This document shows, piece by piece, positions 8,531-63,100 of a DNA stretch of 64,000 bases. Location of the stretch: positions 13,826,001 through 13,890,000 of the forward strand of contig OZ059896.1 of NCBI GenBank assembly GCA_964057225.1, given 5' to 3'. Each line of letters starts with the position of its first letter. Within the stretch, counting starts at the first letter, position 1. The DNA is from Auanema rhodensis. Taxonomy: Eukaryota; Animalia; Nematoda. The translations under genes were made by a program, and so were the position numbers. Under the pieces are notes generated by a model that worked only from the letters and a program-made list of their open reading frames with translations, had not been told where the DNA came from and did no database searches.

Positions 8531-8561
<31 letters not shown>

Positions 8562-14398: not shown

Positions 14399-14400
14399 AC

Positions 14401-26400: not shown

Positions 26401-27396
26401 GTTTCTTCTTGAACTATCTTCTTGAAGAACATAGTCAAGGCGGAGTTTTTTGATCTAAATCGTCGGTTCCGTGGTGTAGCGGTTAGCACTCAGGACTTTG
26501 AATCCTGCGACCCGAGTTCAAATCTCGGCGGAACCTACTTTTTCATTTTTATCAGTTGGTCAATTTGTATCTTCTTGAACTATCTTCTTGAAGAAAATAG
26601 TCAAGGCGGAGTCTTTTGATCTAAATCGTCGGTTCCGTGGTGTAGCGGTTAGCACTCAGGACTCTGAATCCTGCGACCCGAGTTCAAATCTCGGCGGAAC
26701 CTACTTTTTCATTTTTATCAACTAGTCAATTTGTTTCTTCTTGAACTATCTTCTTGAAGAACATAGTCAAGGCGGAGTTTTTTGATCTAAATCGTCGGTT
26801 CCGTGGTGTAGCGGTTAGCACTCAGGACTTTGAATCCTGCGACCCGAGTTCAAATCTCGGCGGAACCTACTTTTTCATTTTTATCAGTTGGTCAATTTGT
26901 ATCTTCTTGAACTATCTTCTTGAAGAAAATAGTCAAGGCGGAGTCTTTTGATCTAAATCGTCGGTTCCGTGGTGTAGCGGTTAGCACTCAGGACTTTGAA
27001 TCCTGCGACCCGAGTTCAAATCTCGGCGGAACCTACTTTTTCATTTTGATCAGTTGGTCAATTTGTTTCTTCTTGAACTATCTTCTTGAAGAACATAAAC
27101 AAGGCGGAGTCTTTTGATCTAAGTCGTCGGTTCCGTGGTGTAGCGGTTAGCACTCAGGACTCTGAATCCTGCGACCCGAGTTCAAATCTCGGCGGAACCT
27201 ACTTTTTCATTTTTATCAGTTGGTCAATTTGTTTCTTCTTGAACTATCTTCTTGAAGAAAATAGTCAAGGCGGAGTCTTTTGATCTAAATCGTCGGTTCC
27301 GTGGTGTAGCGGTTAGCACTCAGGACTCTGAATCCTGCGACCCGAGTTCAAATCTCGGCGGAACCTACTTTTTCATTTTTATCAGTTGGTCAATTT

Positions 27397-27640
27397 TGTG
27401 GCGTTATACCGCAAGTGTATAGTATGGTTGGAAATAAAACACAAAGCGAATATGTAGAAAAGGGTTTATTGATGAATTAACAAGACAAGCACGGAATAGA
27501 ATCACTGACTGCGAACGTTAAAAAATGTAAGACTGATCTCTTCTCGTGGGCGGTCGTCAGCCTGAAACAAAGAGTTAGTCATGCCACATGTATAACACAA
27601 CATGTGGTATGGATAAAAATTACTTAGGAAGTTAGAAGAA

Positions 27641-27699
<59 letters not shown>

Positions 27700-27763
27700 A
27701 GAAACAAATAAAACAATTGTTGAAGATAAAAAAATTATACAAACTCACTCGCTTATCGCGACA
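27397..27763 (-). repeat. 3' LTR of copy 1 (367 bp, contains (GA)n tract)
   Basis: Direct repeat of 36812-37180; apparently differs only by 2 bp in the (GA)n tract. Confidence 0.96.
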
Positions 27764-27793
27764 CTCCCGGCAATGCGGGAATGAGAAGAAGGC

Positions 27794-28306
27794 CTACAAA
27801 GGTCTTTTACGTTTTATATCTCCACAAACCACTCCATGATGCGTATCCGCCTTACATCTATAGCAGGATACCTCGCATATCGCTGGATGTTTTTGATTCA
27901 AACATCTGATGCATAACCCCAGTTCATGAAGACGGAGAGTGCGTTCCGGTGAGGAAGGATAAATCGGACAGGCCGCAGTACGGTGCCCATCAGCTGTCGG
28001 TTTATTGCAGAATACACATGAAGCTTTAGGAGCAGTCTGAATGGTCAAATTGTCTAGTTTCAGATTTAACGAATGTTGAATATTGTCCAGTCGTTCGGAT
28101 AGATGGTTCACCGCGCTAGCTAGGTGCTCGTAGAGCCTCTTTTCAAGCACAATTAGTTGCCTCAGATTGGCAGCAGTGTTAGGTAGATGGGAATATTTTT
28201 TGAGCTCTTCCTCAAAGGAAGCATTCTCAATTATATTCGAGACAATATCTTCCATTTTCATGGAATATAGGAAAGACATGATCTGCATCCTTATATACAT
28301 GTTCAC
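27794..28306 (-). CDS. Accessory 3' ORF of copy 1, 170 aa: predicted coiled coil plus three Cys/His zinc knuckles
   Basis: CVFCNKPTADGHRTAAC, CIRCLNQKHPAIC, CYRCKADTHHGVVC; intact in both element copies. Confidence 0.8.
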   Translation of the reverse strand: MNMYIRMQIMSFLYSMKMEDIVSNIIENASFEEELKKYSHLPNTAANLRQLIVLEKRLYEHLASAVNHLSERLDNIQHSLNLKLDNLTIQTAPKASCVFCNKPTADGHRTAACPIYPSSPERTLRLHELGLCIRCLNQKHPAICEVSCYRCKADTHHGVVCGDIKRKRPL

Positions 28307-28602
28307 ATCTGGACTTTAAACGCTGATTAACATCTATTAGTTCATTGTACAATGGTGTGTTTAGGTTATCTTGTTACAGATACAATGAATTTTAGAGCCT
28401 GTACAAAAGGTTATGTGTTATGTAACTGAGTTGGATAAAAGAAACTTGATACTACCATAAATTGAAAAGAAAGAAAAACAATGATATTGTTTTATTACAA
28501 TGGTTATATTCGTACATAATGCTTTCTTTTTCTTTTGTTTCATTATTATTTCAATTTTTAATTTTAAATTTTATCTCCACAAGAAATTCTTCTCTTATGC
28601 TT

Positions 28603-31600
28603 TTAAAATCTTTGATCCCGAAATAAGGCTTTTGATTTTATCCACAGTGTGAATATCCTGGTAGCTATCCATTGTGTGGTTAAGACTGTATTCAAAACTA
28701 CACAGTACATGATGGGTGTACATGCCACATATCCTATGGTGGCGGTTATTGCAACACCTATCAATATGATTCCCAACTTTGATAAAATTAACTTGAAGAT
28801 TGGAGCAAAGTCAATGGATTTGGATTCTGTACCCTTACTTGAGTCACTTTCGTTTATTTCATCTATGCTTGCTATGTGATGTAATATTCCTTTAATAATG
28901 ATCTTAATTTTTTTATTGTCGCATGTGGTATAGCATAATTCATCAATCTGAGAATTTTCTCTTTTCATTGTTACTTTTGTGATTGCTACTTTTGGAGAGC
29001 ATTTTATCATGAATACTTCTTTTTGACATTCGATAGAAATCCATGTTTCTTCTGCCGTAAGGCATTGGAATTCTGCGAATGCACCCTGCCCGCAGGAGTA
29101 GCAACCTGATAGTTTTGTCAGGGCAGGTGCGCAAGGCAAATTGTTGGAGAAGATCACTGAGTTTAAGAATAGGGATGAATCGACCGTAACTAAATTTTCG
29201 TCTAAATTCGTAGAGAATGATAACGTGTTATCTTTAGTTTTAAAGTTTTGGTTAGGAGATTTTATGTCTGATGTATTGGACATTTTTTCAAAAGTAGGGG
29301 TATCACACCTACATTTTATGTCATCAAATCTATTGAATGTGCAAGGGCAGAATGAGGATACTGTACAGTTATTAAAATGTTTTAATGCGGCTTCCTCTGT
29401 TCCACATTGAATTATTCCCTTTGTGTGTATATCCGTAATGTACGTGTTTTCTTTGGAGGAAAAAAATAATTTTGTGTACATTTCTGGAGGAGGTTGTGAT
29501 TGTGATAACGTTGTTATATTGAAAAGTTGTTCACGATTTTTCGTGTAAGGTTGTAGAGTGATATTGTAATTATTTTTCTGCTGGAGTAATGTTGTTTCTA
29601 TATTAAATACGGTTTGGGTGGACCAACTATCACAAGTATAGACTTCGTATACTTCCTCAGTGACGGGTATATGCTCTATTTTGTAGAAAAGGCACGGATC
29701 TGTCCAAATCATAGGACATGTGTAAAATCTTGCTGACGATGTGAAGCAACCTGATTGTGAAGGGAACGTATATGGTTGTAGTTCCTCGATTTTATTATGA
29801 AGCGAGTTAGTTTCACATGTTCCGTCACACGAGCCCCGGTGACGGCATCGTAATATGCTCAATATGTTGACGGTTGTCTGTCTAGTGAAGTATCTAGTAT
29901 TCTTCTGGCAGACATGTTCAGTATATAGTTTAGTTATTTTAAATTGACCAATTTCATGATTAGAATGCGTTATGGTAATGCATAATTGTTTTGTTCCGGG
30001 AGAAAATATGATATCTTGACTGTATTCGTGATAACAAGCTAAGTTGTCATCGCATCGTATGTTAACGAAGTGTTCAACATGAACATCGGAACATGAACTG
30101 CAGCTTCCAATACATAAAGCCAAGATGATTGCCAGTAACGATGGTAAAGATGTTTGCGACCCTCTAGTAAAGAGAGAGAATTTTGGTGGCTTTCTCGTAT
30201 GGTTTAAAATAGGGTAAATATGCTTTTGAAAGGTTTCATGATCCACAATATTAGCGTCTTGTGTGTTCGTTTGTTTTAATTGCAACGTATCATTGTGGTC
30301 TTCTGTTATTTTTTGATCAGTTTCATGATCTTCTTGTTCGGAGATTGTTTTATGTTTTAATTTCATGATGTTGAGCATGGTTTGAGTGTTTCTGGACCAT
30401 GTCTTATATCTATATTGGCTGTAACCCATGCGGCATAGACAAGAGACTATGAGGGTAACTGCCATAATGGTTATTATCACTGTCCATGTTGCCATTTCTG
30501 GGGAGCAATGAGGATTCGCTATAAGTTTTGTGGTGAACATGTTAGAGTCCTTGCAACTATTGATTTCTTCGGCATACGTCGAAGTAATTATAATCGGTAA
30601 TGAAAGGGCTTTCATTATGTCAGCTGCTATTTTTGGGTTTATTTTATTTTTTCTTTGGTGTGTGGCATAGGACATTTTTAGTGGGAAGGCTTTTATATTT
30701 TCCTTCTCAGTGACCTCATCTTGTTCTGTATATTTTGCTGTTTTTACTGATGATAGCTTTGTTTTATTTTGAGGTCGATCATTTGTTGCATCCTCATTAT
30801 TCTCTGTTTCTGGAGTGTATGTATTATCATGTTGAGAGTTATCTGATTCATATGCAATATCGTAATTATGGTTGCTATCATTTATGTTATTGTTCTCATG
30901 TATTGTTTCATCTGTATGTTCTATAGGATGATCGGAGTGTATGTTGTCTAATACGGTATCAGTATGTGGTATTCTATCTGTTGAGCTATTATTTTCTTGG
31001 ACTATGTGTGAGTTGTCTTCTATGATTTTGTTGTTGCTAGTGTTGCATCTTATCTCTAGTGGATAGAGCTGATTGATAGATCGAGTAATTATGTTTCCGT
31101 TGCTTGTTGCAACTTTTGCTGAACGTATGTTGCCATCTGAACTAGTGATTGTTTTAATGATGCGACCTAGTTTCCATGTTCCTCGTGGCAACATGTCGTT
31201 TTGTATCAATACTATTTCATCTGGTTGGGGGAAGATGTTTGTGTGATTTTTTCTATGGTGTTTATGCTTAAATATAACTTTTAAGCTTGTTAGATATTCT
31301 TCTTGAAATCGTTTCCAAAATTTAGATGCTGAGTCTTCTGATAATTGAAGCGCTTCTAGCGCTTGCTCTGTTGATTGAATCGTTTGAATATCGCTATGGA
31401 TATCAAATATATGAGTATCCGCGTTGTTTTCAGGTAATGAAAACTTTATGGCTGATGTTAAAAAGTCAATTGGCCTTATGGGTAGAGTATCTAAATTATC
31501 TGGGTGTGGATGGGTGAGTGGGCGTGTATTAATTATAGCTTCTATTTTTACAATGGCTGTGTGTAAGTCATCCAGGGACATTCGACTAGGAATGAAACAT

Positions 31601-34600
31601 TTTTTGAGTGAAGCTTTGGTTACACCTACTAAACGTTCCCAACATCCACCTTTCCAGGGTGATAATGGAGTGTTGTATATCCATTTAATTTTTTGTTGTG
31701 CTAGTGTGTTTAGTAAGCTTCTTTCGTTGTAATCCGATGTTTTTTCAAGGGTTTCTAATATTTTTGAGCTCAATATAAAGTTTCCTGCGCAGTCACTACG
31801 CATAATTTCTGGAGTACCTCTGCGTGATATAAATCTAGTGAATGCATTCATAAAAGCAACTGTGGATTGATTGGTGACTACCTCTAAGTGAATTGCTCTA
31901 GTTGTCATGCATGTAAACAGACAGATATGGACTTTAGACCCATTTCGAAGGGTGAAGGGGCCCATAAGATCACACCCTGTTGAAAAGAATGCTCTTGTAA
32001 GAATCGTTCTATCTTTTGGTAGCGATGGCATATCTGGTAATTCATAAGGGTGTGATTGAAATCTTTTACATGTCACACAGTTTTTCAATGTTTGCTTAAT
32101 GACTCCGGTTGTTTTTGGTATATAGAACTTTTGTCTGAGTTGAATAAGCGTGAAATGTTTGCCTTGATGATTATTGTCTTTGTGTATTTTGTTGATCAGT
32201 TTTTTAACTATGGGGTTTGTTTTAAGAAGGAATATAGGGTTTTTCGTCTCTTCGGGAAGAAGAGTATTTTGTAAACGGCTTCTTACGCGATAAATATCCC
32301 ATGTATCTTTGAAGAATTTTAGATTTATATGTCTTTGCTGTAAGTCATCAAGGCTCATATTAGATTGACTGTTACTGATCAAAATTTTTTCAATAATGTT
32401 GATGTCTTCAACAGTGTGCGTGTCTGTTGATGTGAGATGTTTTATTTTTTGCAACTTGTTGGCGTCGTTAGGATGGACTGTGAAAAACCATTTCTTGAAT
32501 AATTTCCCTACGGTTGTCATTGTTTTGATCACGTCATCATAGTTTTCACGAATGTTCCAAATATCATGGGTTGGAGGATTGTCTATGATTATGTGGACAA
32601 CATTGTGATGCTCCGATTTTAATTCTGCGTTATTCCTGCTCGAGTTGTTAGGTGAGCCGAGTGATGTCAGAGGGTTATGCACGGAAAGTTTAGTTAACCA
32701 ATGTGGGCCTTCAATCCAGTCGGAAACTTGTAGTTTTTCCATTTCTGCACCTCGAGATCCGATGTCTGCTGTGTTGAACGAGGTTTGTACGTGATATAGT
32801 TCTATATTGCAACATATTTGTTCGATTTGCTTGAGCTGTTTCTTTATAGTATTTGTTTGATTATTAATGAACAGTGGGAGAGATTTTTGTGAGACAATCC
32901 ATGATAGTGCGATGTTGCTATCGCTCACAATGTTAACTTTCGCTATTTTCGGACATATGGTGACGATAGATAATGCCATTCGTACAGCTAAACGAATGGC
33001 TAGTAACTCTAATCGTGGAATTGTAGTTTTATTTTTGGGTGCTATGCGTGATTTCCCGTTGAGCAGAGAACTAATCTTCCCATTTGTTTGGAAATATGAA
33101 CAAGCGGCCATTGCTTGGTTGCTTGCGTCAGCGAAGACCCATAACTGTGTTTCATGTTCAGAAAACTTAAAATATCTGTTCATGGTTAATTGCTTATTGT
33201 TAATCTGAGTAATATGTTGTTCCCATTGCTTGATACTGTTTGAGTCAATGGGTTGGTCCCATGATAATTTTGTGCTAATGATTTCTCGCAAGATAAGTTT
33301 GAGGGGTAACAGTATTGGTGCTGATAATCCAATGGGATCAAATATTGAATGTAACTGACTGAGTAGAATTCTCTTGGTGTAACTTGTGTGAGTCGTTGTT
33401 ATTTTTATTGGGATAATGAAGGAGTCGTGTTCTTTATTAAAAGATATGCCAAGTATTTTGGTTGTCATGTTCGGATATCTGTCTTCTTCAGGAAGGTTCT
33501 GTATTACTTGTTCATCGTTTGACAAGAATTCGCGAACATGCATGTTTATTTCTGAGAATAGTGTTTGGGTTTCTTTACATTTCTTTATAGCTTCTTCGGT
33601 TGTATTTGCTGTAAGAATGATATTGTCGACGTATAAGTTGTGCAGGATTTCCATAGCTAATGGGTTGTCTACTTTTGATTCTAAGAACCATTTTATGCCC
33701 ATGTTCAATACGCTGGGGGATGCAGTGATACCGAATGGTAATCTGTTGAATCGAAGGGTTATGATATTATTGTGTGATATTGGGTATTCTTTGTTTTTTA
33801 TCCAAAAGAATTTGCATAAATTCTTGTGATTTTCTGTCAATTGTACTTGTAGAAATGCGGCTTTAATATCGCATGTTATTATTATTGGTCTTGTTCTGCA
33901 GGAGATCATGATGTCGTGTATATATGTGATAAATGATCGTCCTGTGTGTATTATCTCATTCAACGATGGGCTATCCTTCTGTTTAGCGGAGGCGTCAAAA
34001 ACGATTCTGAGAGGGTTAGCCTTGCTGGGCTTCCAAACCCCATGGTGGGGCATATAAAACTCTAAAGGCTCCTGGTGATTGTTGGGAATTTGTTCGACAA
34101 TGTTATCTTTGAGGTAACTTTCAATGGTTGTAGTATAGTGTGAGAGCATTTCTGGATTGTGCAGTAACTTTCGCCATAGGGATACGAATCTATGGTACGC
34201 GGGCATTTTGTTGTTTTTGAGATTTTTGAAGTTATTTTTTAACGGGAACGGTGCAATAATACGGTTGTTCTCAATTTTTATATCTTTTGAGTATTCTTCA
34301 TAGTAATCAATAGTGCGGTCTGCGTTGGCATTTTCTGTATTGATGCCGATAGAATCCAGTTCAAACAGATTAGTGAGGAGTTCTTTATGAGAGGTTTCTT
34401 TTGTTATCTCTTCTAATGTAGAGCATAATATTACTTCTTGTTGTGTATTATCATCGGGAAGAGGAGCTTCCCCATGTATCATGTGGCCGAATACCGAGTT
34501 TTTCAATCTCATACGTGAGGGGAGTTCGGTTTCTTCGTTTAAGTGCATGAATAGTTTGTATCTATCCATACCTATCAGTATATCCGGAGTAAATGATTCT

Positions 34601-36533
34601 CCGTTTGTTTTTGGATTGGCTAATTTAATTTTTCTTCTTTGTATGAATTTTAAGTCTTCATTAGATAGTTTAGGACACCGTATAGGTGTGGTTAACATGG
34701 GTTTTGTGAACAGTTTTGTTACGATAAGGGATCCAGTTGAGGTTCCAATAATTACCTTAACATCTTCAACTTCATGTGTTTCTGATAATGCTCCAATGCC
34801 GTAAAAGGTTCTCTTCTGAGAACCAAGAATGGGCAGTCCTAATCTTGTAGATAGGTCCTTGGATATAAAAGATCTCATGGATCCTTCATCTATGAGCATG
34901 CGTACTTGCTCATATTTTTTACTATTGTGGTTGTATATGTTCGCCATTGCTGTTCGTAATATTACTTGACTTTCTTCAATATTATGTGTGTCAGCAATGT
35001 GATTAAGCGATACTGGTGCATTAAGTGCCTCAGTAGGGATTCGATTATTAGTGTCAGATTCTTGTTTATATTCTGTTGTTTTTTTATTCAATAATTCTTC
35101 TGTGGTGATCAGTAAAGCCTGATCTTTTTTAATTGTGGGAGTTTCTTTATCTTTTTGGATATTTTGTACACTTTTTCTTCCTTGTGAGCACAAGGCGGAA
35201 TTATGATCTCCTTGGCAATTGCGACATTTTTGTTTTCTGCATTCCGAACTTTTGTGTTTATCGGAAAAGCAAATCCAACAGATGGCCTTTCCGCGAATGC
35301 GGTACCTTCTTTTCTCTGGTGTTTCAAATGTGGTGCATTGATAAAAACGATGCTCGGATGAGTCGCAAAAGACACATGGCCAAGTTTGGGTTTTCCGTTG
35401 TTCTGCAGTGCTGTCTTTATGTGAAACAGATGTGACATTGTCTTTGTGATTTCGAAACTTTTGTTCATGACTATTTCTTGTTTGTTCTTTTAGAAAAAAG
35501 GAATAGATTTTGTGGTCTACAGCTGTCAGCATTTCTTTAGTAGAATGGTAGTTGTTTGGATGAATTAGAATGTCTTCCACGATGTGGTATGGGAATTTGT
35601 TGAGAATCATCGCGGTACACATTTCGCGGGATACTGTAGCTCCGGCTGCTTCAATTTGCCTGATAAGTGCCTTGGTTTCTCCAAATGTTTCTTTGCATGC
35701 TTTTGCATTATTGCTTGCAAATTTCAAATTACGTAGTTGTGTCAAAAGAGAGTTGATATCCGACGAATAGTCTCCAAATTCAGAAACTAATGCTTCACGC
35801 ATAAGCTCATAATTTTGAGCAGAGGGTTCTATTCCTCTGATTGCTATTTGTGAATCGCCTTTGAGGCTTTCACAGAGTAGGTTTACCTTTTCTAAGGTTG
35901 TAAACTGTTCATTATCATGAACAAGTCTATCAAAACGGCCCCAGAATGATTTGAAGTTCTCTGGTTTGCCATCAAATGTAGGTAGCGACATCGCTGGTTT
36001 TTGGATACTAGTTTGTTGGATGTGTAGGAATGACTTGATAATTTCCAGAAATTGATCATTCGATTTGTTTTCTGTTTCATTGTTTTCTGTTGAGCGATTG
36101 CTGTTGTGCTCAGATTCATTCTTATGAAGCGTTTTTCTCAGCTTTCTAAGTATGCGTTCGGCTTTCATGATGTGTTCGTCAAGCTCAATAATGGCGTTTT
36201 GAACCTTTTTAATGTTGGGTTCAAAGTCTTCATCGGATGTGAAGGCGATGTACTGTTCGTCTAATGCTTTACGAAGCGTTTGTCTGATGCTTCGTAAAAT
36301 TTTTGGAATTTTTTCTCGTTATCTTGATGATTTTTCAACGATTCTTTGAATTGGTGTTGGACTTTTGTCCAGCGAATGATAAGGCAAGAGAGGGTTTCCT
36401 CTTCTTCCTCAGTGTGGAAGTCGCAATCTACCAGAATACCAGGAAGGTCCTTCACTTCCATCTCGTATCGTGTAAGTAATTCTCCGAGAAACTGGTTAGA
36501 CTGTTTGATATGATTGACAAAAAGGAGTGACAT
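28603..36533 (-). CDS. Gag-Pol-Env polyprotein of copy 1, with a 1-bp frameshift at ~36280 near the gag N-terminus
   Basis: ORFs 36261-36662 (MSLLFVNH from ATG 36533) and 28603-36168 together match the 2643-aa ORF of copy 2; GAAGCGTTTGTC here versus GAAGCGTTTTGTC in copy 2. Confidence 0.93.
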
Positions 36534-36796
36534 TTTTGTCGTAGATGTAGGAATAATGCTTATATTCCTTTTACTTTCTCTTTTTTTTTTGTTTGTTTGG
36601 TGATCACAGTATATGTGATAGTGAATCTCTGTTTCTGTCTGCAGAGTTTGCTTATGGTTCAAGTCTTTTTGGTGTGACTTGACGTGGACTAATGGTTGCC
36701 ACGATTTCTATTAAGTATGTTTTTTGCTCAAACACGCTTGGTTTGAGCTGTATCTCACCTGCCACGCGGGACTTGAAGCGGCTAAGATCTGAACTA

Positions 36797-36808
36797 GCCG
36801 ATGCACCA
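36797..36808 (-). promoter_or_regulatory. Primer-binding site TGGTGCATCGGC, complementary to the 3' end of tRNA-Gly(GCC)
   Basis: 3 nt downstream of the 5' LTR on the minus strand; the + strand reads GCCGATGCACCA, the 3' end of invertebrate tRNA-Gly-GCC plus CCA. Confidence 0.88.
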
Positions 36809-36811
36809 ATT

Positions 36812-37055
36812 TGTGGCGTTATACCGCAAGTGTATAGTATGGTTGGAAATAAAACACAAAGCGAATATGTAGAAAAGGGTTTATTGATGAATTAACAAGA
36901 CAAGCACGGAATAGAATCACTGACTGCGAACGTTAAAAAATGTAAGACTGATCTCTTCTCGTGGGCGGTCGTCAGCCTGAAACAAAGAGTTAGTCATGCC
37001 ACATGTATAACACAACATGTGGTATGGATAAAAATTACTTAGGAAGTTAGAAGAA

Positions 37056-37116
<61 letters not shown>

Positions 37117-37180
37117 AGAAACAAATAAAACAATTGTTGAAGATAAAAAAATTATACAAACTCACTCGCTTATCGCGACA
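36812..37180 (-). repeat. 5' LTR of copy 1 (369 bp)
   Basis: Direct repeat of 27397-27763, adjacent to the PBS. Confidence 0.96.
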
Positions 37181-42870: not shown

Positions 42871-43217
42871 TGTGGCAATATACCACAAGTGTATAGTATG
42901 GTTGGAAGTAAAACACAAAGCGAATATGTAGAAAAGGGTTTATTGATGAATTAACAAGACAAGCACGGAATAAAATCACTGACTGCGAACGTTGAAGATG
43001 TAAGACTGATCTCTTCTCGTGGGCGGTCGTCAGCCTGAAACAAAGAGTTAGTCATGCCACATGTATAACACAACATGTGGTATGGATAAAAATTACTTAG
43101 GAAGTTACAAGAAAGAAGAAAGAAGAGAGAGAGAGAGAGAGAGGGAGAGAACAGGAGAGACAAATAAAACAATTGTTGAAGATAAAATTTATACAAACTC
43201 ACTCGCTTATCGCGACA
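42871..43217 (-). repeat. 3' LTR of copy 2 (347 bp)
   Basis: TGTGGCAATA...TCGCGACA, direct repeat of 52277-52623. Confidence 0.96.
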
Positions 43218-43247
43218 CTCCCGGCAATGCGGGAATGAGAAGAAGGC

Positions 43248-43760
43248 CTACAAAGGTCTTTTACGTTTTATATCACCACAAACCACTCCATGATGCGTAT
43301 CCGCCTTACATCTATAGCAGGATACCTCGCAAATCGCTGGATGTTTTTGATTCAAACATCTGATGCATAACCCCAGTTCATGAAGACGGAGAGTGCGTTC
43401 CGGTGAGGAAGGATAAATCGGACAGGCCGCAGTACGGTGCCCATCAGCTGTCGGTTTATTGCAGAATACACATGAAGCTTTAGGAGCAGTCTGAATGGTC
43501 AAATTGTCCAGTTTCAGATTTAACGAATGTTGAATATTGTCCAGTCGTTCGGATAGATGGTTCACCGCGCTAGCTAGGTGCTCGTAGAGCCTCTTTTCAA
43601 GCACAATTAGTTGCCTCAGATTGGCAGCAGTGTTAGGTAGATGGGAATATTTTTTGAGCTCTTCCTCAAAGGAAGCATTCTCAATTATATTCGAGACAAT
43701 ATCTTCCATTTTCATGGAATATAGGAGAAACATGAGCTGCATCCTTATATACATGTTCAC
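43248..43760 (-). CDS. Accessory 3' zinc-knuckle ORF of copy 2, 170 aa
   Basis: Identical to the copy 1 ORF from residue ~13 onward. Confidence 0.8.
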   Translation of the reverse strand: MNMYIRMQLMFLLYSMKMEDIVSNIIENASFEEELKKYSHLPNTAANLRQLIVLEKRLYEHLASAVNHLSERLDNIQHSLNLKLDNLTIQTAPKASCVFCNKPTADGHRTAACPIYPSSPERTLRLHELGLCIRCLNQKHPAICEVSCYRCKADTHHGVVCGDIKRKRPL

Positions 43761-44056
43761 ATCTGGACTTTAAACGCTGATTAACATCTATTAGTTTATT
43801 GTACAATGGTGTGTTTAGGTTATCTTGTTACAGATACAATGAATTTTAGAGCCTGTACAAAAGGTTATGTGTTATGTAACTGAGTTGGATAAAAGAAACT
43901 TGATACTACCATAAATTGAAATGAAAGAAAAACAATGATATTGTTTTATTACAATGGTTATATTCGTACATAATGCTTTCTTTTTCTTTTGTTTCATTAT
44001 TATTTCAATTTTTAATTTTAAATTTAATCTCCACAAGAAATTCTTCTCTTATGCTT

Positions 44057-51988: not shown

Positions 51989-52261
51989 TTTTGTTGTAGA
52001 TGTAGGAATAATGCTTATATTCCTTTTTTGTTTTCTTTTTTCTTTGTTTGTTTGGTGATCACAGTATATGTGAACGTAAGGAAATTGAAACCTCTGTTTC
52101 TAATTTCAGAGTTTGCTTATTGTTCAAGTCTGTTTGGTGTGACTTGACGTGGACTTATGATCGCCACGATTTTTATTAAGTATGTTTTTTGCACAAACAC
52201 GCTTGGTTCGACTTGTATCTCACCTGCCACGCGGGACTTAAAGCGGCTAAGATCTAAACTA

Positions 52262-52273
52262 GCCGATGCACCA
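52262..52273 (-). promoter_or_regulatory. Primer-binding site (tRNA-Gly-GCC) of copy 2
   Basis: GCCGATGCACCA on the + strand, 3 nt from the 5' LTR. Confidence 0.88.
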
Positions 52274-52276
52274 ATT

Positions 52277-52623
52277 TGTGGCAATATACCACAAGTGTAT
52301 AGTATGGTTGGAAGTAAAACACAAAGCGAATATGTAGAAAAGGGTTTATTGATGAATTAACAAGACAAGCACGGAATAAAATCACTGACTGCGAACGTTG
52401 AAGATGTAAGACTGATCTCTTCTCGTGGGCGGTCGTCAGCCTGAAACAAAGAGTTAGTCATGCCACATGTATAACACAACATGTGGTATGGATAAAAATT
52501 ACTTAGGAAGTTACAAGAAAGAAGAAAGAAGAGAGAGAGAGAGAGAGAGGGAGAGAACAGGAGAGACAAATAAAACAATTGTTGAAGATAAAATTTATAC
52601 AAACTCACTCGCTTATCGCGACA
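52277..52623 (-). repeat. 5' LTR of copy 2 (347 bp)
   Basis: Direct repeat of 42871-43217, adjacent to the PBS. Confidence 0.96.
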
Positions 52624-55600
52624 AACGGGGAGTCTTTTGATCTAAATCGTCGGTTCCGTGGTGTAGCGGTTAGCACTCAGGACTCTGAATCCTGCGACCC
52701 GAGTTCAAATATCGGCGGAACCTACTTTTTCATTTTGATCAACTAGTCAATTTGTTTCTTCTTGAACTATCTTCTTGAAGAACATAGTCAAGGCGGAGTT
52801 TTTTGATCTAAATCGTCGGTTCCGTGGTGTAGCGGTTAGCACTCAGGACTCTGAATCCTGCGACCCGAGTTCAAATCTCGGCGGAACCTAGTTTTTCATT
52901 TTTATCAGTTGGTCAATTTGTTTCTTCTTGAACTATCTTCTTGAAGAACATAGTCAACGGGGAGTCTTTTGATCTAAATCGTCGGTTCCGTGGTGTAGCG
53001 GTTAGCACTCAGGACTCTGAATCCTGCGACCCGAGTTCAAATCTCGGCGGAACCTACTTTTTCATTTTGATCAGTTGGTCAATTTGTTTCTTCTTGAACT
53101 ATCTTCTTGAAGAACATAGTCAACGGGGAGTCTTTTGATCTAAATCGTCGGTTCCGTGGTGTAGCGGTTAGCACTCAGGACTCTGAATCCTGCGACCCGA
53201 GTTCAAATATCGGCGGAACCTACTTTTTCATTTTGATCAACTAGTCAATTTGTTTCTTCTTGAACTATCTTCTTGAAGAACATAGTCAAGGCGGAGTTTT
53301 TTGATCTAAATCGTCGGTTCCGTGGTGTAGCGGTTAGCACTCAGGACTCTGAATCCTGCGACCCGAGTTCAAATCTCGGCGGAACCTACTTTTTCATTTT
53401 TATCAGTTGGTCAATTTGTTTCTTCTTGAACTATCTTCTTGAAGAAAATAGTCAAGGCGGAGTCTTTTGATCTAAATCGTCGGTTCCGTGGTGTAGCGGT
53501 TAGCACTCAGGACTCTGAATCCTGCGACCCGAGTTCAAATCTCGGCGGAACCTAGTTTTTCATTTTTATCAGTTGGTCAATTTGTTTCTTCTTGAACTAT
53601 CTTCTTGAAGAACATAGTCAACGGGGAGTCTTTTGATCTAAATCGTCGGTTCCGTGGTGTAGCGGTTAGCACTCAGGACTCTGAATCCTGCGACCCGAGT
53701 TCAAATCTCGGCGGAACCTACTTTTTCATTTTGATCAGTTGGTCAATTTGTTTCTTCTTGAACTATCTTCTTGAAGAACATAGTCAACGGGGAGTCTTTT
53801 GATCTAAATCGTCGGTTCCGTGGTGTAGCGGTTAACACTCAGGACTCTGAATCCTGCGACCCGAGTTCAAATATCGGCGGAACCTACTTTTTCATTTTGA
53901 TCAACTAGTCAATTTGTTTCTTCTTGAACTATCTTCTTGAAGAACATAAACAAGGCGGAGTCTTTTGATCTAAATCGTCGGTTCCGTGGTGTAGCGGTTA
54001 GCACTCAGGACTCTGAATCCTGCGACCCGAGTTCAAATATCGGCGGAACCTACTTTTTCATTTTGATCAACTAGTCAATTTGTTTCTTCTTGAACTATCT
54101 TCTTGAAGAACATAAACAAGGCGGAGTCTTTTGATCTAAATCGTCGGTTCCGTGGTGTAGCGGTTAGCACTCAGGACTCTGAATCCTGCGACCCGAGTTC
54201 AAATCTCGGCGGAACCTACTTTTTCATTTTGATCAACTAGTCAATTTGTTTCTTCTTGAACTATCTTCTTGAAGAAAATAGTCAAGGCGGAGTCTATTGA
54301 TCTAAATCGTCGGTTCCGTGGTGTAGCGGTTAGCACTCAGGACTCTGAATCCTGCGACCCGAGTTCAAATCTCGGCGGAACCTACTTTTTCTTTTTGATC
54401 AACTAGTCAATTTGTTTCTTCTTGAACTATCTTCTTGAAGAACATAAACAAGGCGGAGTCTTTTGATCTAAATCGTCGGTTCCGTGGTGTAGCGGTTAGC
54501 ACTCAGGACTCTGAATCCTGCGACCCGAGTTCAAATCTCGGCGGAACCTACTTTTTCATTTTTATCAGTTGGTCAATTTGTATCTTCTTGAACTATCTTC
54601 TTGAAGAAAATAGTCAAGGCGGAGTATTTTGATCTAAATCGTCGGTTCCGTGGTGTAGCGGTCAGCACTCAGGACTCTGAATCCTGCGACCCGAGTTCAA
54701 ATCTCGGCGGAACCTACTTTTTCATTTTTATCAGTTGGTCAATTTGTATCTTCTTGATCTATCTTCTTGAAGAAAATAGTCAAGGCGGAGTATTTTGATC
54801 TAAATCGTCGGTTCCGTGGTGTAGCGGTTAGCACTCAGGACTCTGAATCCTGCGACCCGAGTTCAAATCTCGGCGGAACCTACTTTTTCATTTTGATCAG
54901 TTGGTCAATTTGTTTCTTCTTGAACTATCTTCTTGAAGAACATAGTCAACGGGGAGTCTTTTGATCTAAATCGTCGGTTCCGTGGTGTAGCGGTTAGCAC
55001 TCAGGACTCTGAATCCTGCGACCCGAGTTCAAATATCGGCGGAACCTACTTTTTCATTTTGATCAACTAGTCAATTTGTTTCTTCTTGAACTATCTTCTT
55101 GAAGAACATAGTCAAGGCGGAGTTTTTTGATCTAAATCGTCGGTTCCGTGGTGTAGCGGTTAGCACTCAGGACTCTGAATCCTGCGACCCGAGTTCAAAT
55201 CTCGGCGGAACCTACTTTTTCATTTTTATCAGTTGGTCAATTTGTTTCTTCTTGAACTATCTTCTTGAAGAAAATAGTCAAGGCGGAGTCTTTTGATCTA
55301 AATCGTCGGTTCCGTGGTGTAGCGGTTAGCACTCAGGACTCTGAATCCTGCGACCCGAGTTCAAATCTCGGCGGAACCTAGTTTTTCATTTTTATCAGTT
55401 GGTCAATTTGTTTCTTCTTGAACTATCTTCTTGAAGAACATAGTCAACGGGGAGTCTTTTGATCTAAATCGTCGGTTCCGTGGTGTAGCGGTTAGCACTC
55501 AGGACTCTGAATCCTGCGACCCGAGTTCAAATCTCGGCGGAACCTACTTTTTCATTTTGATCAGTTGGTCAATTTGTTTCTTCTTGAACTATCTTCTTGA

Positions 55601-58600
55601 AGAACATAGTCAACGGGGAGTCTTTTGATCTAAATCGTCGGTTCCGTGGTGTAGCGGTTAGCACTCAGGACTCTGAATCCTGCGACCCGAGTTCAAATAT
55701 CGGCGGAACCTACTTTTTCATTTTGATCAACTAGTCAATTTGTTTCTTCTTGAACTATCTTCTTGAAGAACATAAACAAGGCGGAGTCTTTTGATCTAAA
55801 TCGTCGGTTCCGTGGTGTAGCGGTTAGCACTCAGGACTCTGAATCCTGCGACCCGAGTTCAAATCTCGGCGGAACCTACTTTTTCATTTTTATCAGTTGG
55901 TCAATTTGTATCTTCTTGATCTATCTTCTTGAAGAAAATAGTCAAGGCGGAGTCTTTTGATCTAAATCGTCGGTTCCGTGGTGTAGCGGTTAGCACTCAG
56001 GACTCTGAATCCTGCGACCCGAGTTCAAATCTCGGCGGAACCTACTTTTTCTTTTTGATCAACTAGTCAATTTGTTTCTTCTTGAACTATCTTCTTGAAG
56101 AACATAAACAAGGCGGAGTCTTTTGATCTAAATCGTCGGTTCCGTGGTGTAGCGGTTAGCACTCAGGACTCTGAATCCTGCGACCCGAGTTCAAATCTCG
56201 GCGGAACCTACTTTTTCATTTTTATCAGTTGGTCAATTTGTATCTTCTTGAACTATCTTCTTGAAGAAAATAGTCAAGGCGGAGTATTTTGATCTAAATC
56301 GTCGGTTCCGTGGTGTAGCGGTCAGCACTCAGGACTCTGAATCCTGCGACCCGAGTTCAAATCTCGGCGGAACCTACTTTTTCATTTTTATCAGTTGGTC
56401 AATTTGTATCTTCTTGATCTATCTTCTTGAAGAAAATAGTCAAGGCGGAGTCTTTTGATCTAAATCGTCGGTTCCGTGGTGTAGCGGTTAGCACTCAGGA
56501 CTCTGAATCCTGCGACCCGAGTTCAAATCTCGGCGGAACCTACTTTTTCTTTTTGATCAACTAGTCAATTTGTTTCTTCTTGAACTATCTTCTTGAAGAA
56601 CATAAACAAGGCGGAGTCTTTTGATCTAAATCGTCGGTTCCGTGGTGTAGCGGTTAGCACTCAGGACTCTGAATCCTGCGACCCGAGTTCAAATCTCGGC
56701 GGAACCTACTTTTTCATTTTTATCAGTTGGTCAATTTGTATCTTCTTGAACTATCTTCTTGAAGAAAATAGTCAAGGCGGAGTATTTTGATCTAAATCGT
56801 CGGTTCCGTGGTGTAGCGGTCAGCACTCAGGACTCTGAATCCTGCGACCCGAGTTCAAATCTCGGCGGAACCTACTTTTTCATTTTTATCAGTTGGTCAA
56901 TTTGTTTCTTCCTGAACTATCTTCTTGAAGAACATAGTCAAGGCGGAGTATTTTGATCTAAATCGTCGGTTCCGTGGTGTAGCGGTTAGCACTCAGGACT
57001 CTGAATCCTGCGACCCGAGTTCAAATCTCGGCGGAACCTACTTTTTCATTTTGATCAACTAGTCAATTTGTTTCTTCTTGAACTATCTTCTTGAAGAAAA
57101 TAGTCAAGGCGGAGTCTTTTGATCTAAATCGTCGGTTCCGTGGTGTAGCGGTTAGCACTCAGGACTCTGAATCCTGCGACCCGAGTTCAAATCTCGGCGG
57201 AACCTACTTTTTCTTTTTGATCAACTAGTCAATTTGTTTCTTCTTGAACTATCTTCTTGAAGAACATAAACAAGGCGGAGTCTTTTGATCTAAATCGTCG
57301 GTTCCGTGGTGTAGCGGTTAGCACTCAGGACTCTGAATCCTGCGACCCGAGTTCAAATCTCGGCGGAACCTACTTTTTCATTTTTATCAGTTGGTCAATT
57401 TGTTTCTTCCTGAACTATCTTCTTGAAGAACATAGTCAAGGCGGAGTCTTTTGATCTAAATCGTCGGTTCCGTGGTGTAGCGGTTAGCACTCAGGACTCT
57501 GAATCCTGCGACCCGAGTTCAAATCTCGGCGGAACCTACTTTTTCATTTTTATCAGTTGGTCAATTTGTTTCTTCTTGAACTATCTTCTTGAAGAACATA
57601 GTCAAGGCGGAGTTTTTTGATCTAAATCGTCGGTTCCGTGGTGTAGCGGTTAGCACTCAGGACTCTGAATCCTGCGACCCGAGTTCAAATCTCGGCGGAA
57701 CCTACTTTTTCATTTTGATCAACTAGTCAATTTGTTTCTTCTTGAACTATCTTCTTGAAGAACATAGTCAAGGCGGAGTTTTTTGATCTAAATCGTCGGT
57801 TCCGTGGTGTAGCGGTTAGCACTCAGGACTCTGAATCCTGCGACCCGAGTTCAAATCTCGGCGGAACCTACTTTTTCATTTTGATCAACTAGTCAATTTG
57901 TTTCTTCTTGAACTATCTTCTTGAAGAACATAAACAAGGCGGAGTCTTTTGATCTAAATCGTCGGTTCCGTGGTGTAGCGGTTAGCACTCAGGACTCTGA
58001 ATCCTGCGACCCGAGTTCAAATCTCGGCGGAACCTACTTTTTCTTTTTGATCAACTAGTCAATTTGTTTCTTCTTGAACTATCTTCTTGAAGAAAATAGT
58101 CAAGGCGGAGTATTTTGATCTAAATCGTCGGTTCCGTGGTGTAGCGGTTAGCACTCAGGACTCTGAATCCTGCGACCCGAGTTCAAATCTCGGCGGAACC
58201 TACTTTTTCATTTTTATCAGTTGGTCAATTTGTATCTTCTTGAACTATCTTCTTGAAGAAAATAGTCAAGGCGGAGTATTTTGATCTAAATCGTCGGTTC
58301 CGTGGTGTAGCGGTTAGCACTCAGGACTCTGAATCCTGCGACCCGAGTTCAAATCTCGGCGGAACCTACTTTTTCATTTTTATCAGTTGGTCAATTTGTA
58401 TCTTCTTGAACTATCTTCTTGAAGAAAATAGTCAAGGCGGAGTATTTTGATCTAAATCGTCGGTTCCGTGGTGTAGCGGTTAGCACTCAGGACTCTGAAT
58501 CCTGCGACCCGAGTTCAAATCTCGGCGGAACCTACTTTTTCATTTTGATCAACTAGTCAATTTGTTTCTTCTTGATTTATCTTCTTGAAGAAAATAGTCA

Positions 58601-59764
58601 AGGCGGAGTCTTTTGATCTAAATCGTCGATTCCGTGGTGTAGCGGTTAGCACTCAGGACTCTGAATCCTGCGACCCGAGTTCAAATCTCGGCGGAACCTA
58701 CTTTTTCTTTTTGATCAACTAGTCAATTTGTTTCTTCTTGAACTATCTTCTTGAAGAACATAAACAAGGCGGAGTCTTTTGATCTAAATCGTCGGTTCCG
58801 TGGTGTAGCGGTTAGCACTCAGGACTCTGAATCCTGCGACCCGAGTTCAAATCTCGGCGGAACCTACTTTTTCATTTTTATCAGTTGGTCAATTTGTTTC
58901 TTCTTGAACTATCTTCTTGAAGAAAATAGTCAAGGCGGAGTCTTTTGATCTAAATCGTCGGTTCCGTGGTGTAGCGGTTAGCACTCAGGACTCTGAATCC
59001 TGCGACCCGAGTTCAAATCTCGGCGGAACCTACTTTTTCATTTTGATCAACTAGTCAATTTGTTTCTTCTTGAACTATCTTCTTGAAGAACATAAACAAG
59101 GCGGAGTCTTTTGATCTAAATCGTCGGTTCCGTGGTGTAGCGGTTAGCACTCAGGACTCTGAATCCTGCGACCCGAGTTCAAATCTCGGCGGAACCTACT
59201 TTTTCTTTTTGATCAACTAGTCAATTTGTTTCTTCCTGAACTATCTTCTTGAAGAACATAGTCAAGGTGGAGTCTTTTGATCTAAATCGTCGGTTCCGTG
59301 GTGTAGCGGTTAGCACTCAGGACTTTGAATCCTGCGACCCGAGTTCAAATCTCGGCGGAACCTACTTTTTCATTTTTATCAGTTGGTCAATTTGTTTCTT
59401 CCTGAACTATCTTTTTGAAGAACATAGTCAAGGCGGAGTCTTTTGATCTAAATCGTCGGTTCCGTGGTGTAGCGGTTAGCACTCAGGACTCTGAATCCTG
59501 CGACCCGAGTTCAAATCTCGGCGGAACCTACTTTTTCATTTTTATCAGTTGGTCAATTTGTTTCTTCTTGAACTATCTTCTTGAAGAACATAGTCAAGGC
59601 GGAGTTGTTTGATCTAAATCGTCGGTTCCGTGGTGTAGCGGTTAGCACTCAGGACTCTGAATCCTGCGACCCGAGTTCAAATCTCGGCGGAACCTACTTT
59701 TTCATTTTTATCAGTTTGTCAATTTGTTTCTTCTTGAACTTTCTTCTTGAAGAACATAGTCAAG
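52624..59764 (+). tRNA. tRNA-Gln tandem array block 3: ~43 genes (52652 to 59695), nearly all CTG
   Basis: 6972 bp between first and last gene starts = 42 x 166. Confidence 0.96.
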
Positions 59765-60101
59765 CGTTCCGTTATGCTCTCACGTCGATTCTATAGACCA
59801 ATAAAGCCTACAAGATGAGTGTGATAGTATTCCAGATGTAGCGGTACATAAATAGCTTAATGGATAAACATAAGACTTGAGAAAGAAAGGTTTATTATGT
59901 CTACATGATTACAATAAGTTATAAAAGTCTGCATAAAGATATAAAGTGAAAGAGAGCTAAGAAAGGAAGACCAACCATCCATAGTCATTCCATAAGGCAA
60001 AGCTGAAGTCTGTGTTCCATATGAAGGGCGTGTCGTCCTCTCTCAGCCTCATGTTGTCTGATTCTAACCCGCCTGCTACGTATTGATTTCCGAATGGAAC
60101 G
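59765..60101. mobile_element. 337-bp non-coding insertion (solo-LTR-like or MITE), TSD CAAG, termini CGTTCC...GGAACG; further copies start at 60272, 60945, 61452, 61959, 62632, 63305 and 63812 (last one cut by the window end)
   Basis: Empty site CATAGT-CAAG-GCGGAG; filled site CATAGT-CAAG-[CGTTCCGTT...AATGGAACG]-CAAG-GCGGAG. The minus strand has a pyrimidine-rich tract, TTGTAA and AATAAA arranged as in an LTR R region. Confidence 0.82.
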
Positions 60102-63100
60102 CAAGGCGGAGTCTTTTGATCTAAATCGTCGGTTCCGTGGTGTAGCGGTTAGCACTCAGGACTTTGAATCCTGCGACCCGAGTTCAAATCTCGGCGGAAC
60201 CTACTTTTTCATTTTTATCAGTTGGTCAATTTGTTTCTTCTTGAACTTTCTTCTTGAAGAACATAGTCAAGCGTTCCGTTATGCTCTCACGTCGATCCTA
60301 TAGACCAATAAAGCCTACAAGATGAGTGTGATAGTATTCCAGATGTAGCGGTACATAAATAGCTTAATGGATAAACATAAGACTTGAGAAAGAAAGGTTT
60401 ATTATGTCTACATGATTACAATAAGTTATAAAGGTCTGCATAAAGATATAAAGTGAAAGAGAGCTAAGAAAGGAAGACCAACCATCCATAGTCATTCCAT
60501 AAGGCAAAGCTGAAGTCTGTGTTCCATATGAAGGGCGTGTCGTCCTCTCTCAGCCTCATGTTGTCTGATTCTAACCCGCCTGCTACGTATTGATTCCCGA
60601 ATGGAACGCAAGGCGGAGTCTTTTGATCTAAATCGTCGGTTCCGTGGTGTAGCGGTTAGCACTCAGGACTTTGAATCCTGCGACCCGAGTTCAAATCTCG
60701 GCGGAACCTACTTTTTCATTTTTATCAGTTGGTCAATTTGTTTCTTCTTAAACTATCTACTTGAAGAACATAGTCAAGACGGAGTTTTTTGATCTAAATC
60801 GTCGGTTCCGTGGTGTAGCGGTTAGCACTCAGGACTTTGAATCCTGCGACCCGAGTTCAAATCTCGGCGGAACCTACTTTTTCATTTTTATCAGTTGGTC
60901 AATTTGTTTCTTCTTGAACTTTCTTCTTGAAGAACATAGTCAAGCGTTCCGTTATGCTCTCACGTCGATCCTATAGACCAATAAAGCCTACAAGATGAGT
61001 GTGATAGTATTCCAGATGTAGCGGTACATAAATAGCTTAATGGATAAACATAAGACTTGAGAAAGAAAGGTTTATTATGTCTACATGATTACAATAAGTT
61101 ATAAAAGTCTGCATAAAGATATAAAGTGAAAGAGAGCTAAGAAAGGAAGACCAACCATCCATAGTCATTCCATAAGGCAAAGCTGAAGTCTGTGTTCCAT
61201 ATGAAGGGCGTGTCGTCCTCTCTCAGCCTCATGTTGTCTGATTCTAACCCGCCTGCTACGTATTGATTTCCGAATGGAACGCAAGGCGGAGTCTTTTGAT
61301 CTAAATCGTCGGTTCCGTGGTGTAGCGGTTAGCACTCAGGACTTTGAATCCTGCGACCCGAGTTCAAATCTCGGCGGAACCTACTTTTTCATTTTTATCA
61401 GTTGGTCAATTTGTTTCTTCTTGAACTTTCTTCTTGAAGAACATAGTCAAGCGTTCCGTTATGCTCTCACGTCGATCCTATAGACCAATAAAGCCTACAA
61501 GATGAGTGTGATAGTATTCCAGATGTAGCGGTACATAAATAGCTTAATGGATAAACATAAGACTTGAGAAAGAAAGGTTTATTATGTCTACATGATTACA
61601 ATAAGTTATAAAAGTCTGCATAAAGATATAAAGTGAAAGAGAGCTAAGAAAGGAAGACCAACCATCCATAGTCATTCCATAAGGCAAAGCTGAAGTCTGT
61701 GTTCCATATGAAGGGCGTGTCGTCCTCTCTCAGCCTCATGTTGTCTGATTCTAACCCGCCTGCTACGTATTGATTTCCGAATGGAACGCAAGGCGGAGTC
61801 TTTTGATCTAAATCGTCGGTTCCGTGGTGTAGCGGTTAGCACTCAGGACTTTGAATCCTGCGACCCGAGTTCAAATCTCGGCGGAACCTACTTTTTCATT
61901 TTTATCAGTTGGTCAATTTGTTTCTTCTTGAACTTTCTTCTTGAAGAACATAGTCAAGCGTTCCGTTATGCTCTCACGTCGATCCTATAGACCAATAAAG
62001 CCTACAAGATGAGTGTGATAGTATTCCAGATGTAGCGGTACATAAATAGCTTAATGGATAAACATAAGACTTGAGAAAGAAAGGTTTATTATGTCTACAT
62101 GATTACAATAAGTTATAAAGGTCTGCATAAAGATATAAAGTGAAAGAGAGCTAAGAAAGGAAGACCAACCATCCATAGTCATTCCATAAGGCAAAGCTGA
62201 AGTCTGTGTTCCATATGAAGGGCGTGTCGTCCTCTCTCAGCCTCATGTTGTCTGATTCTAACCCGCCTGCTACGTATTGATTCCCGAATGGAACGCAAGG
62301 CGGAGTCTTTTGATCTAAATCGTCGGTTCCGTGGTGTAGCGGTTAGCACTCAGGACTTTGAATCCTGCGACCCGAGTTCAAATCTCGGCGGAACCTACTT
62401 TTTCATTTTTATCAGTTGGTCAATTTGTTTCTTCTTAAACTATCTACTTGAAGAACATAGTCAAGACGGAGTTTTTTGATCTAAATCGTCGGTTCCGTGG
62501 TGTAGCGGTTAGCACTCAGGACTTTGAATCCTGCGACCCGAGTTCAAATCTCGGCGGAACCTACTTTTTCATTTTTATCAGTTGGTCAATTTGTTTCTTC
62601 TTGAACTTTCTTCTTGAAGAACATAGTCAAGCGTTCCGTTATGCTCTCACGTCGATCCTATAGACCAATAAAGCCTACAAGATGAGTGTGATAGTATTCC
62701 AGATGTAGCGGTACATAAATAGCTTAATGGATAAACATAAGACTTGAGAAAGAAAGGTTTATTATGTCTACATGATTACAATAAGTTATAAAGGTCTGCA
62801 TAAAGATATAAAGTGAAAGAGAGCTAAGAAAGGAAGACCAACCATCCATAGTCATTCCATAAGGCAAAGCTGAAGTCTGTGTTCCATATGAAGGGCGTGT
62901 CGTCCTCTCTCAGCCTCATGTTGTCTGATTCTAACCCGCCTGCTACGTATTGATTCCCGAATGGAACGCAAGGCGGAGTCTTTTGATCTAAATCGTCGGT
63001 TCCGTGGTGTAGCGGTTAGCACTCAGGACTTTGAATCCTGCGACCCGAGTTCAAATCTCGGCGGAACCTACTTTTTCATTTTTATCAGTTGGTCAACTTG

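What the first reader, a model, noticed from the sequence alone, without database searches (positions are those of the whole stretch)
27392..60105. tRNA array used as a landing pad: independent mobile insertions in spacers, two at almost the same position upstream of the tRNA
Seen: three independent insertions with distinct TSDs (AATTT, AACGG, CAAG) all lie in spacers and leave the tRNAs intact. BEL copy 2 and the 337-bp element have TSDs ending 23 and 25 nt upstream of tRNA G1. BEL copy 1 is 25 nt downstream of one gene and 64 nt upstream of the next. Both BEL copies are antisense to the tRNAs. Known: Pol III-gene targeting is established for yeast Ty1/Ty3 and Dictyostelium TRE/DGLT-A elements, and about -25 is the TFIIIB-binding zone. 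I do not know of it for nematode BEL/Pao elements. Inference: possible tRNA-gene-targeted env-bearing retroelement and a host-array/virus niche. With n=3 and spacer being ~57% of the unit, chance plus relaxed selection is not excluded.
Basis: partly seen in the sequence, partly recalled or inferred. Interest (0 to 1): 0.8.

Follow-up and report, generated by a model that had tools for sequence, protein, structure and literature searches.

The report
Retroelement hot spot in tRNA array
A roundworm's array of at least 174 glutamine tRNA genes holds three clean retroelement insertions and likely a fourth, two of them very recent copies of an envelope-bearing endogenous virus that likely has only two or three copies per genome, so the array is likely a preferred landing region, but the claimed fixed landing spot just upstream of the tRNA is within chance.

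Summary
Coordinates, target-site duplications and distances are exact. Two env-bearing BEL/Pao copies (LTR pairs without substitutions, 4.1% apart) and a 337-bp insert sit in spacers of a 166-bp tRNA-Gln array. Public contigs show the 337-bp insert is a solo LTR with CG ends, a 4-bp duplication and a tRNA-Gln-like primer site in relatives; its 8 copies are one insertion spread by array turnover. The -23/-25 match is within chance (P 0.09-0.17) and joins two different families; the BEL copies themselves lie at -23 and -64, and other isolates show 3 flanks outside the array. What is not chance is regional: 2 of 5 known BEL sites lie in about 0.04% of the genome (P about 0.002; about 0.02 if only a tenth of the genome tolerates insertions). 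All three spacer sites also fall on the unit's two GTCAA words (post hoc). Best reading: a loose regional preference plus tolerance, not Ty3-like fixed-distance targeting. No genome was available to map all copies. Four look-ups in earlier scan notes found no such case.

The parts
12699..64000 (.). tRNA-Gln tandem array, 166-167-bp unit (72-bp gene + 94-95-bp spacer), 174 genes: 8 on - strand (12699-13932), 166 on + strand; runs off the window end
14028..14067 (-). truncated tRNA-Gln (positions 33-72 only) at the array inversion point
14068..14249 (-). likely 3' half of an LTR related to the 337-bp element: CG end, AATAAA 133 nt from that end (132 in the 337-bp LTR); the CG end abuts the tRNA anticodon loop
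   Evidence: end-anchored score 46 vs 23.6+-8.3, 9 of 1000 shuffles; unanchored local alignment not significant
27392..27396 (+). left TSD of BEL copy 1 (AATTT; right copy 37181-37185)
27397..37180 (-). BEL/Pao element copy 1, 9784 bp; LTRs 27397-27763 and 36812-37180 (0 substitutions, 2-bp length difference); long ORF 28603-36318, reading frame broken near its start; 173-aa ORF 27794-28315
42866..42870 (+). left TSD of BEL copy 2 (AACGG; right copy 52624-52628)
42871..52623 (-). BEL/Pao element copy 2, 9753 bp; identical 347-bp LTRs 42871-43217 and 52277-52623; gag-pol-env ORF 44057-52099; 173-aa ORF 43248-43769
52264..52273 (-). primer-binding site of BEL copy 2 (starts TGG, 3 nt after the LTR); not complementary to the array tRNA-Gln
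   Evidence: likeness to a tRNA-Gly end is recalled
59761..59764 (+). left TSD of the 337-bp solo LTR (CAAG; right copy 60102-60105)
59765..60101 (-). 337-bp solo LTR with CG...CG ends, antisense to the tRNAs; first of 8 copies in the window
60272..64000 (-). seven further copies of the same solo LTR at the same junction (60272, 60945, 61452, 61959, 62632, 63305, 63812 cut by the window end), 1-3 differences from the first

Best explanation
The tRNA-Gln array has received several independent LTR-element insertions and is likely a loosely preferred landing region for their integrases, without a fixed distance to the tRNA. Shown: three integrase-type insertions with TSDs, two of them very young BEL copies from different templates. 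Inferred: integration complexes reach this dense block of Pol III genes more often than average DNA (accessible chromatin or weak tethering), then pick a local site by sequence or bendability (both BEL cuts fall right after GTC in GTCAA, and the solo LTR one base earlier in the same word). Inserts survive because any one of about 200 units is dispensable, and unequal exchange then spreads or removes them, as it has spread the solo LTR.
For: BEL LTR pairs have 0 substitutions; the copies differ by 398 of 9742 sites, in a mosaic (0.4-1.4% over env, up to 10% in pol), so neither is the direct parent. Contig depths suggest about 2-3 full-length copies per genome (run X2: junction 5.15, internal 9.27+6.74, LTR 24.7; X3: internal 460+391, LTR 1496; the tool warns depth is no copy number). 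2 of 5 distinct known sites lie in at least 32 kb of array against about 76 million letters of contigs: P=0.0016-0.0028 given one is there, 0.016-0.028 if only a tenth of the genome is tolerant. None of the three LTRs matches the 12.7-kb gene-bearing flank. Shared 5-nt run at the two BEL sites: P=0.008-0.010 among site pairs of the unit; 7 of 13 matches P=0.03-0.05 (post hoc).
Against: No genome to map all copies. 3 of the 5 sites are outside this array. The window was picked because it looked striking, and with a tolerant fraction near 2% the P rises to 0.08. Only 1 of the 3 off-array sites could share the AA start of the duplication, and that one is favoured by the way contigs were laid. No evidence on chromatin or transcription of the array. 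Site counts pool different isolates.
Confidence: 0.5

Rival explanations
1. Passive safe haven: insertion is random, but 10-kb elements are purged from a gene-dense genome and survive only in redundant DNA such as this array; the cluster is chance plus window selection.
For: The flank gene has very short introns. All within-unit statistics are within chance. Off-array flanks exist in 3 of 4 runs. Insertions occur at four different unit positions, and one contig in X1 leaves the spacer at a fifth, near spacer base 39 (unverified).
Against: Needs a tolerant fraction of only a few percent of the genome to make two same-family hits 5.7 kb apart likely. The copies are too young for long accumulation.
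Confidence: 0.33
2. The CG-ended, tRNA-Gln-primed family of the 337-bp solo LTR, likely Ty3/gypsy-like, is a Ty3/DGLT-A-type element tethered by TFIIIB just upstream of tRNA genes; the BEL copies are incidental.
For: -25 lies in the 13-33 bp window of DGLT-A and the 6-30 bp window of Tca8/beta (PMC5911963 Table 1, passages). All narrow-window LTR targeters in that table are Ty3/gypsy. 4-bp TSD and a primer site unlike Arg/Gly (PMC8742986).
Against: One insertion event only. Its likely relative ends inside a tRNA gene, in sense. One low-depth contig in X7 (35 vs about 500) shows a non-array flank. The coding region was not seen, so the clade is inferred.
Confidence: 0.1
3. The BEL integrase binds TFIIIB/TFIIIC and inserts at a fixed distance from Pol III genes.
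For: Copy 2 at -23; both copies antisense; off-array flanks were visible for at most 30 letters, too short to exclude a dispersed tRNA beyond them.
Against: Copy 1 is at -64/+25; by the criterion of PMC5006619 (several copies at similar distance; passages) the family fails. 3 of 3 same orientation has P=0.25. Only DUF5641 follows the integrase core.
Confidence: 0.05
4. Assembly artefact or a single insertion duplicated with the array.
For: Tandem arrays are hard to assemble; this does explain the 8 solo-LTR copies.
Against: Different TSDs and unit positions, 4.1% divergence, empty alleles present; copy 2 and solo-LTR junctions in independent runs. The copy 1 junction itself was not seen as a bridging contig.
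Confidence: 0.02

Closest known systems
Env-bearing nematode Belpaoviridae (Semotivirus; Atlas virus, PMC9094657; ICTV profile PMC8742986)
   Same: LTR size, single gag-pol-env frame, Pao RNase H/peptidase A17, DUF1759, DUF5641, phlebovirus G2-like Env, three zinc knuckles; best hits 40-41% identical from Ancylostoma and Haemonchus
   Different: Sits twice in a tRNA array; carries a 173-aa ORF behind env. The word tRNA has 0 hits in the two Atlas papers and in PMC3118150.
Ty3, Tj1, Tca8/beta, Tyl3/Tyl6/Ylt1, DGLT-A (Ty3/gypsy elements at a fixed short distance upstream of tRNA genes; PMC5911963, PMC5006619)
   Same: BEL copy 2 (-23) and the solo LTR (-25) fall inside the DGLT-A and beta windows
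   Different: No repeat of the distance within a family; BEL is another clade; host is an animal; one insertion lies inside a tRNA gene
Ty1/Ty2/Ty4 (about 1-kb window upstream of Pol III genes)
   Same: Loose regional association with Pol III genes, the pattern the data fit best
   Different: Copia clade; in a 166-bp array every site is inside such a window, so the test needs dispersed genes
Dada DNA transposons and target-specific non-LTR elements of animal multicopy RNA genes (PMC8869645, passages)
   Same: Multicopy tRNA genes as harmless targets in animals
   Different: Those are sequence-specific at one site and are not LTR elements

Membership tests
Belpaoviridae (BEL/Pao) | LTRs of 0.2-1.2 kb, genome 4.2-10 kb | tested here: met
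   347-369-bp LTRs, 9.75-9.78 kb (PMC8742986 whole text)
Belpaoviridae (BEL/Pao) | gag and pol with PR-RT-RH-IN order and BEL-specific domains | tested here: met
   DUF1759, aspartyl protease (weak), RVT_1 (scored in copy 1), Peptidase_A17, Integrase_H2C2, DUF5641 in that order
Belpaoviridae (BEL/Pao) | PBS for tRNA-Arg or tRNA-Gly | tested here: inconclusive
   TGG-starting PBS 3 nt after the LTR; not the array tRNA-Gln; match to tRNA-Gly is recalled, host tRNA set not held
Belpaoviridae (BEL/Pao) | polypurine tract of about 10 nt before the 3' LTR | tested here: inconclusive
   only a short G-rich run precedes the LTR
Atlas clade | phlebovirus-like Env plus Atlas-like capsid fold | not tested
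   Env met (Phlebovirus_G2 E 4e-42); capsid not compared
Ty3/DGLT-A-type fixed-distance tRNA targeters (BEL family) | several copies at a similar distance from tRNA genes | tested here: not met
   -23 and -64; 3 distinct non-array flanks
Ty3/DGLT-A-type fixed-distance tRNA targeters (337-bp LTR family) | several copies at a similar distance from tRNA genes | tested here: inconclusive
   one event at -25, amplified; likely relative inside a gene
Ty3/DGLT-A-type fixed-distance tRNA targeters | integrase binds TFIIIB/TFIIIC | not testable with these tools
   host factors not held
Ty1-type regional Pol III targeters | most copies within about 1 kb upstream of Pol III genes genome-wide | tested here: inconclusive
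   2 of 5 sites in the array; the other 3 seen for at most 30 letters; no genome
Solo LTR (337-bp element) | same termini in relatives, with a PBS next to the 3' end, poly(A) signal, TSD | tested here: met
   loose ends start exactly at 59765 and 60101; in X2 and X3 the letters beside the 3' end read as a PBS; AATAAA 132 nt from that end

The most novel reading that the evidence does not exclude
An envelope-bearing belpaovirus and a CG-ended, tRNA-Gln-primed LTR family are actively steered to Pol III gene arrays in a nematode: the first animal LTR elements with Ty1- or Ty3-like tRNA-gene targeting, one of them living in the array of the very tRNA species that primes it.
Probability: 0.25. Interest if true: 0.78.

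Novelty: new variant of a known kind. Interest (0 to 1): 0.46.

Why it matters
tRNA-gene targeting by LTR elements is documented in yeasts and social amoebae; the review table read (PMC5911963, 2018) lists no animal and no BEL/Pao case, and ten literature searches turned up none. A nematode with a roughly 200-unit tRNA array and a young, low-copy, polymorphic BEL family makes the question testable by mapping natural insertions across isolates. If only tolerance is at work, it is still a clear snapshot of insertion, solo-LTR formation, spread and inversion inside a tRNA array.

Tried and rejected
No whole genome is held. Exact LTR-end patterns gave 0 matches in metagenome contigs and genome contigs. 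The pol alignment found 2 distant loci in metagenome contigs (26-30% identity, 0 tRNA genes in both) and none in viral contigs: uninformative. No RNA holder listed among 14 runs. Earlier-scan look-ups by words and by the 337-bp sequence returned nothing; two by place gave unrelated notes. MITE reading of the 337-bp insert (longer inverted ends, 2-bp TSD) rejected: relatives end exactly at the CG termini and carry a PBS. Eight independent solo-LTR insertions rejected: same junction, 1-3 differences. Copy 1 as direct parent of copy 2 rejected (4.1% mosaic divergence, identical LTR pairs). BEL priming by the array tRNA rejected. Strict GTCAA sequence specificity rejected: at least 2 of 3 off-array sites do not fit (by eye). 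Unanchored local alignment of the 14068 fragment to the 337-bp LTR was not significant (46 vs 37+-6); only the end-anchored test was. Of 10 loose-end rows, 4 at the LTR termini were counted and 6 inside the LTR (diverged relatives) were left out; one search showed 24 loose ends and hid 17.
Full report
What is there. The window holds a tRNA-Gln array from 12699 to beyond 64000: 174 genes, 8 on the - strand and 166 on the + strand, in a 166-167-bp unit. Left of it lies an AT-rich gene with Ig and fibronectin-like exons and short introns. The closest named relatives of the element's pol are from strongylid nematodes, so the host is likely a nematode. No whole genome is held.

The BEL copies. 27397-37180 and 42871-52623 are BEL/Pao elements on the - strand with gag, pol, a phlebovirus-G2-like env and a 173-aa ORF behind it. 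Their LTR pairs have no substitutions; the copies differ at 398 of 9742 sites, 0.4-1.4% over env and up to 10% in pol. They are two recent, independent insertions from different templates, 5.7 kb apart. The rebuilt empty spacers occur 14 and 4 times elsewhere in the window. Copy 1's long frame is broken near its start. Their primer site is not complementary to the array tRNA.

The 337-bp insert. It occurs 8 times at one junction with 1-3 differences: one event spread by array turnover. Contigs of all 4 runs laid cross the same junctions, at roughly ten times single-copy depth, so it is older than BEL copy 2. Relatives in those runs leave the reference exactly at 59765 and 60101, which fixes the termini as CG...CG and the TSD as 4 bp. 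In X2 the letters beside the 3' end pair with the tRNA-Gln 3' end plus CCA at 12 of 13 places, 10 in a row; X3 shows the same with one more mismatch; X1 has a 1979-letter contig running on from that end (read by eye). So it is a solo LTR, antisense to the tRNAs, of a likely tRNA-Gln-primed element. ICTV gives Arg or Gly for Belpaoviridae (PMC8742986, whole text), so another clade, likely Ty3/gypsy, is inferred. CG instead of TG...CA ends is unusual by my recall; one search found no paper.

A fourth insert. At the array's inversion point, 14068-14249 is foreign DNA. On the - strand it has AATAAA 133 nt before a CG end (132 in the solo LTR) and shares a GACGTGA word near that end; an end-anchored alignment scores 46 against 23.6+-8.3 (9 of 1000 shuffles), while an unanchored one was not significant. 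Its CG end abuts position 33 of a truncated tRNA. It is likely the remnant of an insertion into a tRNA gene, in sense. The inversion removed the other junction, so no TSD can be checked.

Is the position special? No. Under a uniform model a pair within 2 bp has P=0.089 for three inserts and 0.17 for four; three in spacers 0.18; three of the same orientation 0.25. The lowest value, two in the 13-33 bp DGLT-A window, is 0.044 for three inserts, 0.081 for four and 0.13 if only spacer insertions survive. The close pair belongs to two families, and the two BEL copies lie 41 bp apart in the unit. A rival local pattern is as strong: the unit has two GTCAA words, both BEL duplications start after GTC in them, and the solo-LTR duplication one base earlier (P=0.008-0.010 for a 5-nt run among site pairs, 0.03-0.05 for 7 of 13 matches; post hoc). 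It is not strict, as at least 2 of 3 off-array sites do not fit.

Is the region special? Probably. Eleven of 14 listed runs hold at least half of the BEL words. Of 4 runs laid on the LTR, X2 and X6 bridge the copy 2 junction; X1 and X3 show no cover there. Four loose-end rows at the LTR termini give 3 distinct flanks unlike the array unit (X1 and X3 share one; the X6 one has low depth). Depths point to about 2-3 full-length copies per genome, with the tool's caveat. So 2 of 5 known sites lie in at least 32 kb of array out of about 76 million letters: P=0.0016-0.0028 given one is there, 0.016-0.028 if a tenth of the genome tolerates insertions, 0.078 if the array were 2% of tolerant DNA. Limits: flanks are shown for at most 30 letters, so nearby dispersed Pol III genes cannot be excluded; contigs resembling human DNA, as tRNA genes may, are dropped silently, which would hide array junctions; isolates are pooled; the window was chosen for looking odd.

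Mechanism. Shown: integrase-type insertions, their youth, polymorphism of copy 2, spread of the solo LTR. Inferred: a loose regional bias toward this Pol III block with local site choice by sequence, and survival through redundancy (0.5). Passive tolerance alone 0.33; fixed-distance targeting by the CG-ended family 0.10, by BEL 0.05; artefact 0.02. Pfam finds only DUF5641 behind the integrase core.

What is known. PMC5911963 (passages and Table 1) and PMC5006619 (passages) list tRNA-adjacent LTR elements in yeasts and dictyostelids, all copia or gypsy. PMC8869645 (passages) covers animal non-LTR and DNA elements that target multicopy RNA genes. PMC3118150, PMC9094657 and bioRxiv 10.64898/2026.03.22.711591 (term searches and passages) do not contain the word tRNA. 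Searches (listings only) showed no BEL or nematode case; subscription papers are mostly outside the library and no supplements were read.

Verdict. The elements are ordinary members of a known family. The clustering is real and modestly significant, the fixed-position claim is not supported, and active Pol III targeting by an animal LTR element stays open at about one in four. Interest 0.46.

Noticed in passing
window 59765-60101: Solo LTR with CG...CG termini, 4-bp TSD and, in relatives, a tRNA-Gln-like primer site directly at the LTR end, lying in a tRNA-Gln array; the primer site mismatches the array tRNA at one place.
   Followed up: partly
window 14028-14327: The array flips orientation at an LTR-like remnant; the inversion may have arisen by recombination at or between LTR inserts.
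   Followed up: partly
window 43248-43769 and 27794-28315: 173-aa ORF between env and the 3' LTR with three CCHC-like knuckles, about 99% alike in both copies, no Pfam family at threshold; possibly an accessory protein.
   Followed up: no
window 27397-37180 vs 42871-52623: Mosaic divergence: env and the 3' ORF 0.4-1.4%, pol blocks alternating between 1% and 10%, suggesting recombination between sub-lineages.
   Followed up: partly
window 14327-63742: CTG and TTG anticodon genes are interleaved on one spacer type, with local higher-order repeats; TTG is common left of 27000 and in the solo-LTR block, CTG in between.
   Followed up: no
window 59734 (run X1): One contig leaves the spacer near base 39 into sequence that begins like an LTR end: a possible fifth insertion site in another isolate.
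   Followed up: no
array spacer, e.g. window 14399-14493: The spacer has an internal duplication (GTCAA and TTCTTGAA each twice); the two BEL sites are 41 bp, about four helical turns, apart in a unit of nucleosome-repeat size.
   Followed up: no
window 700-9500: Ig/fibronectin-domain gene with many short introns on the + strand, likely L1CAM-like (label recalled).
   Followed up: partly
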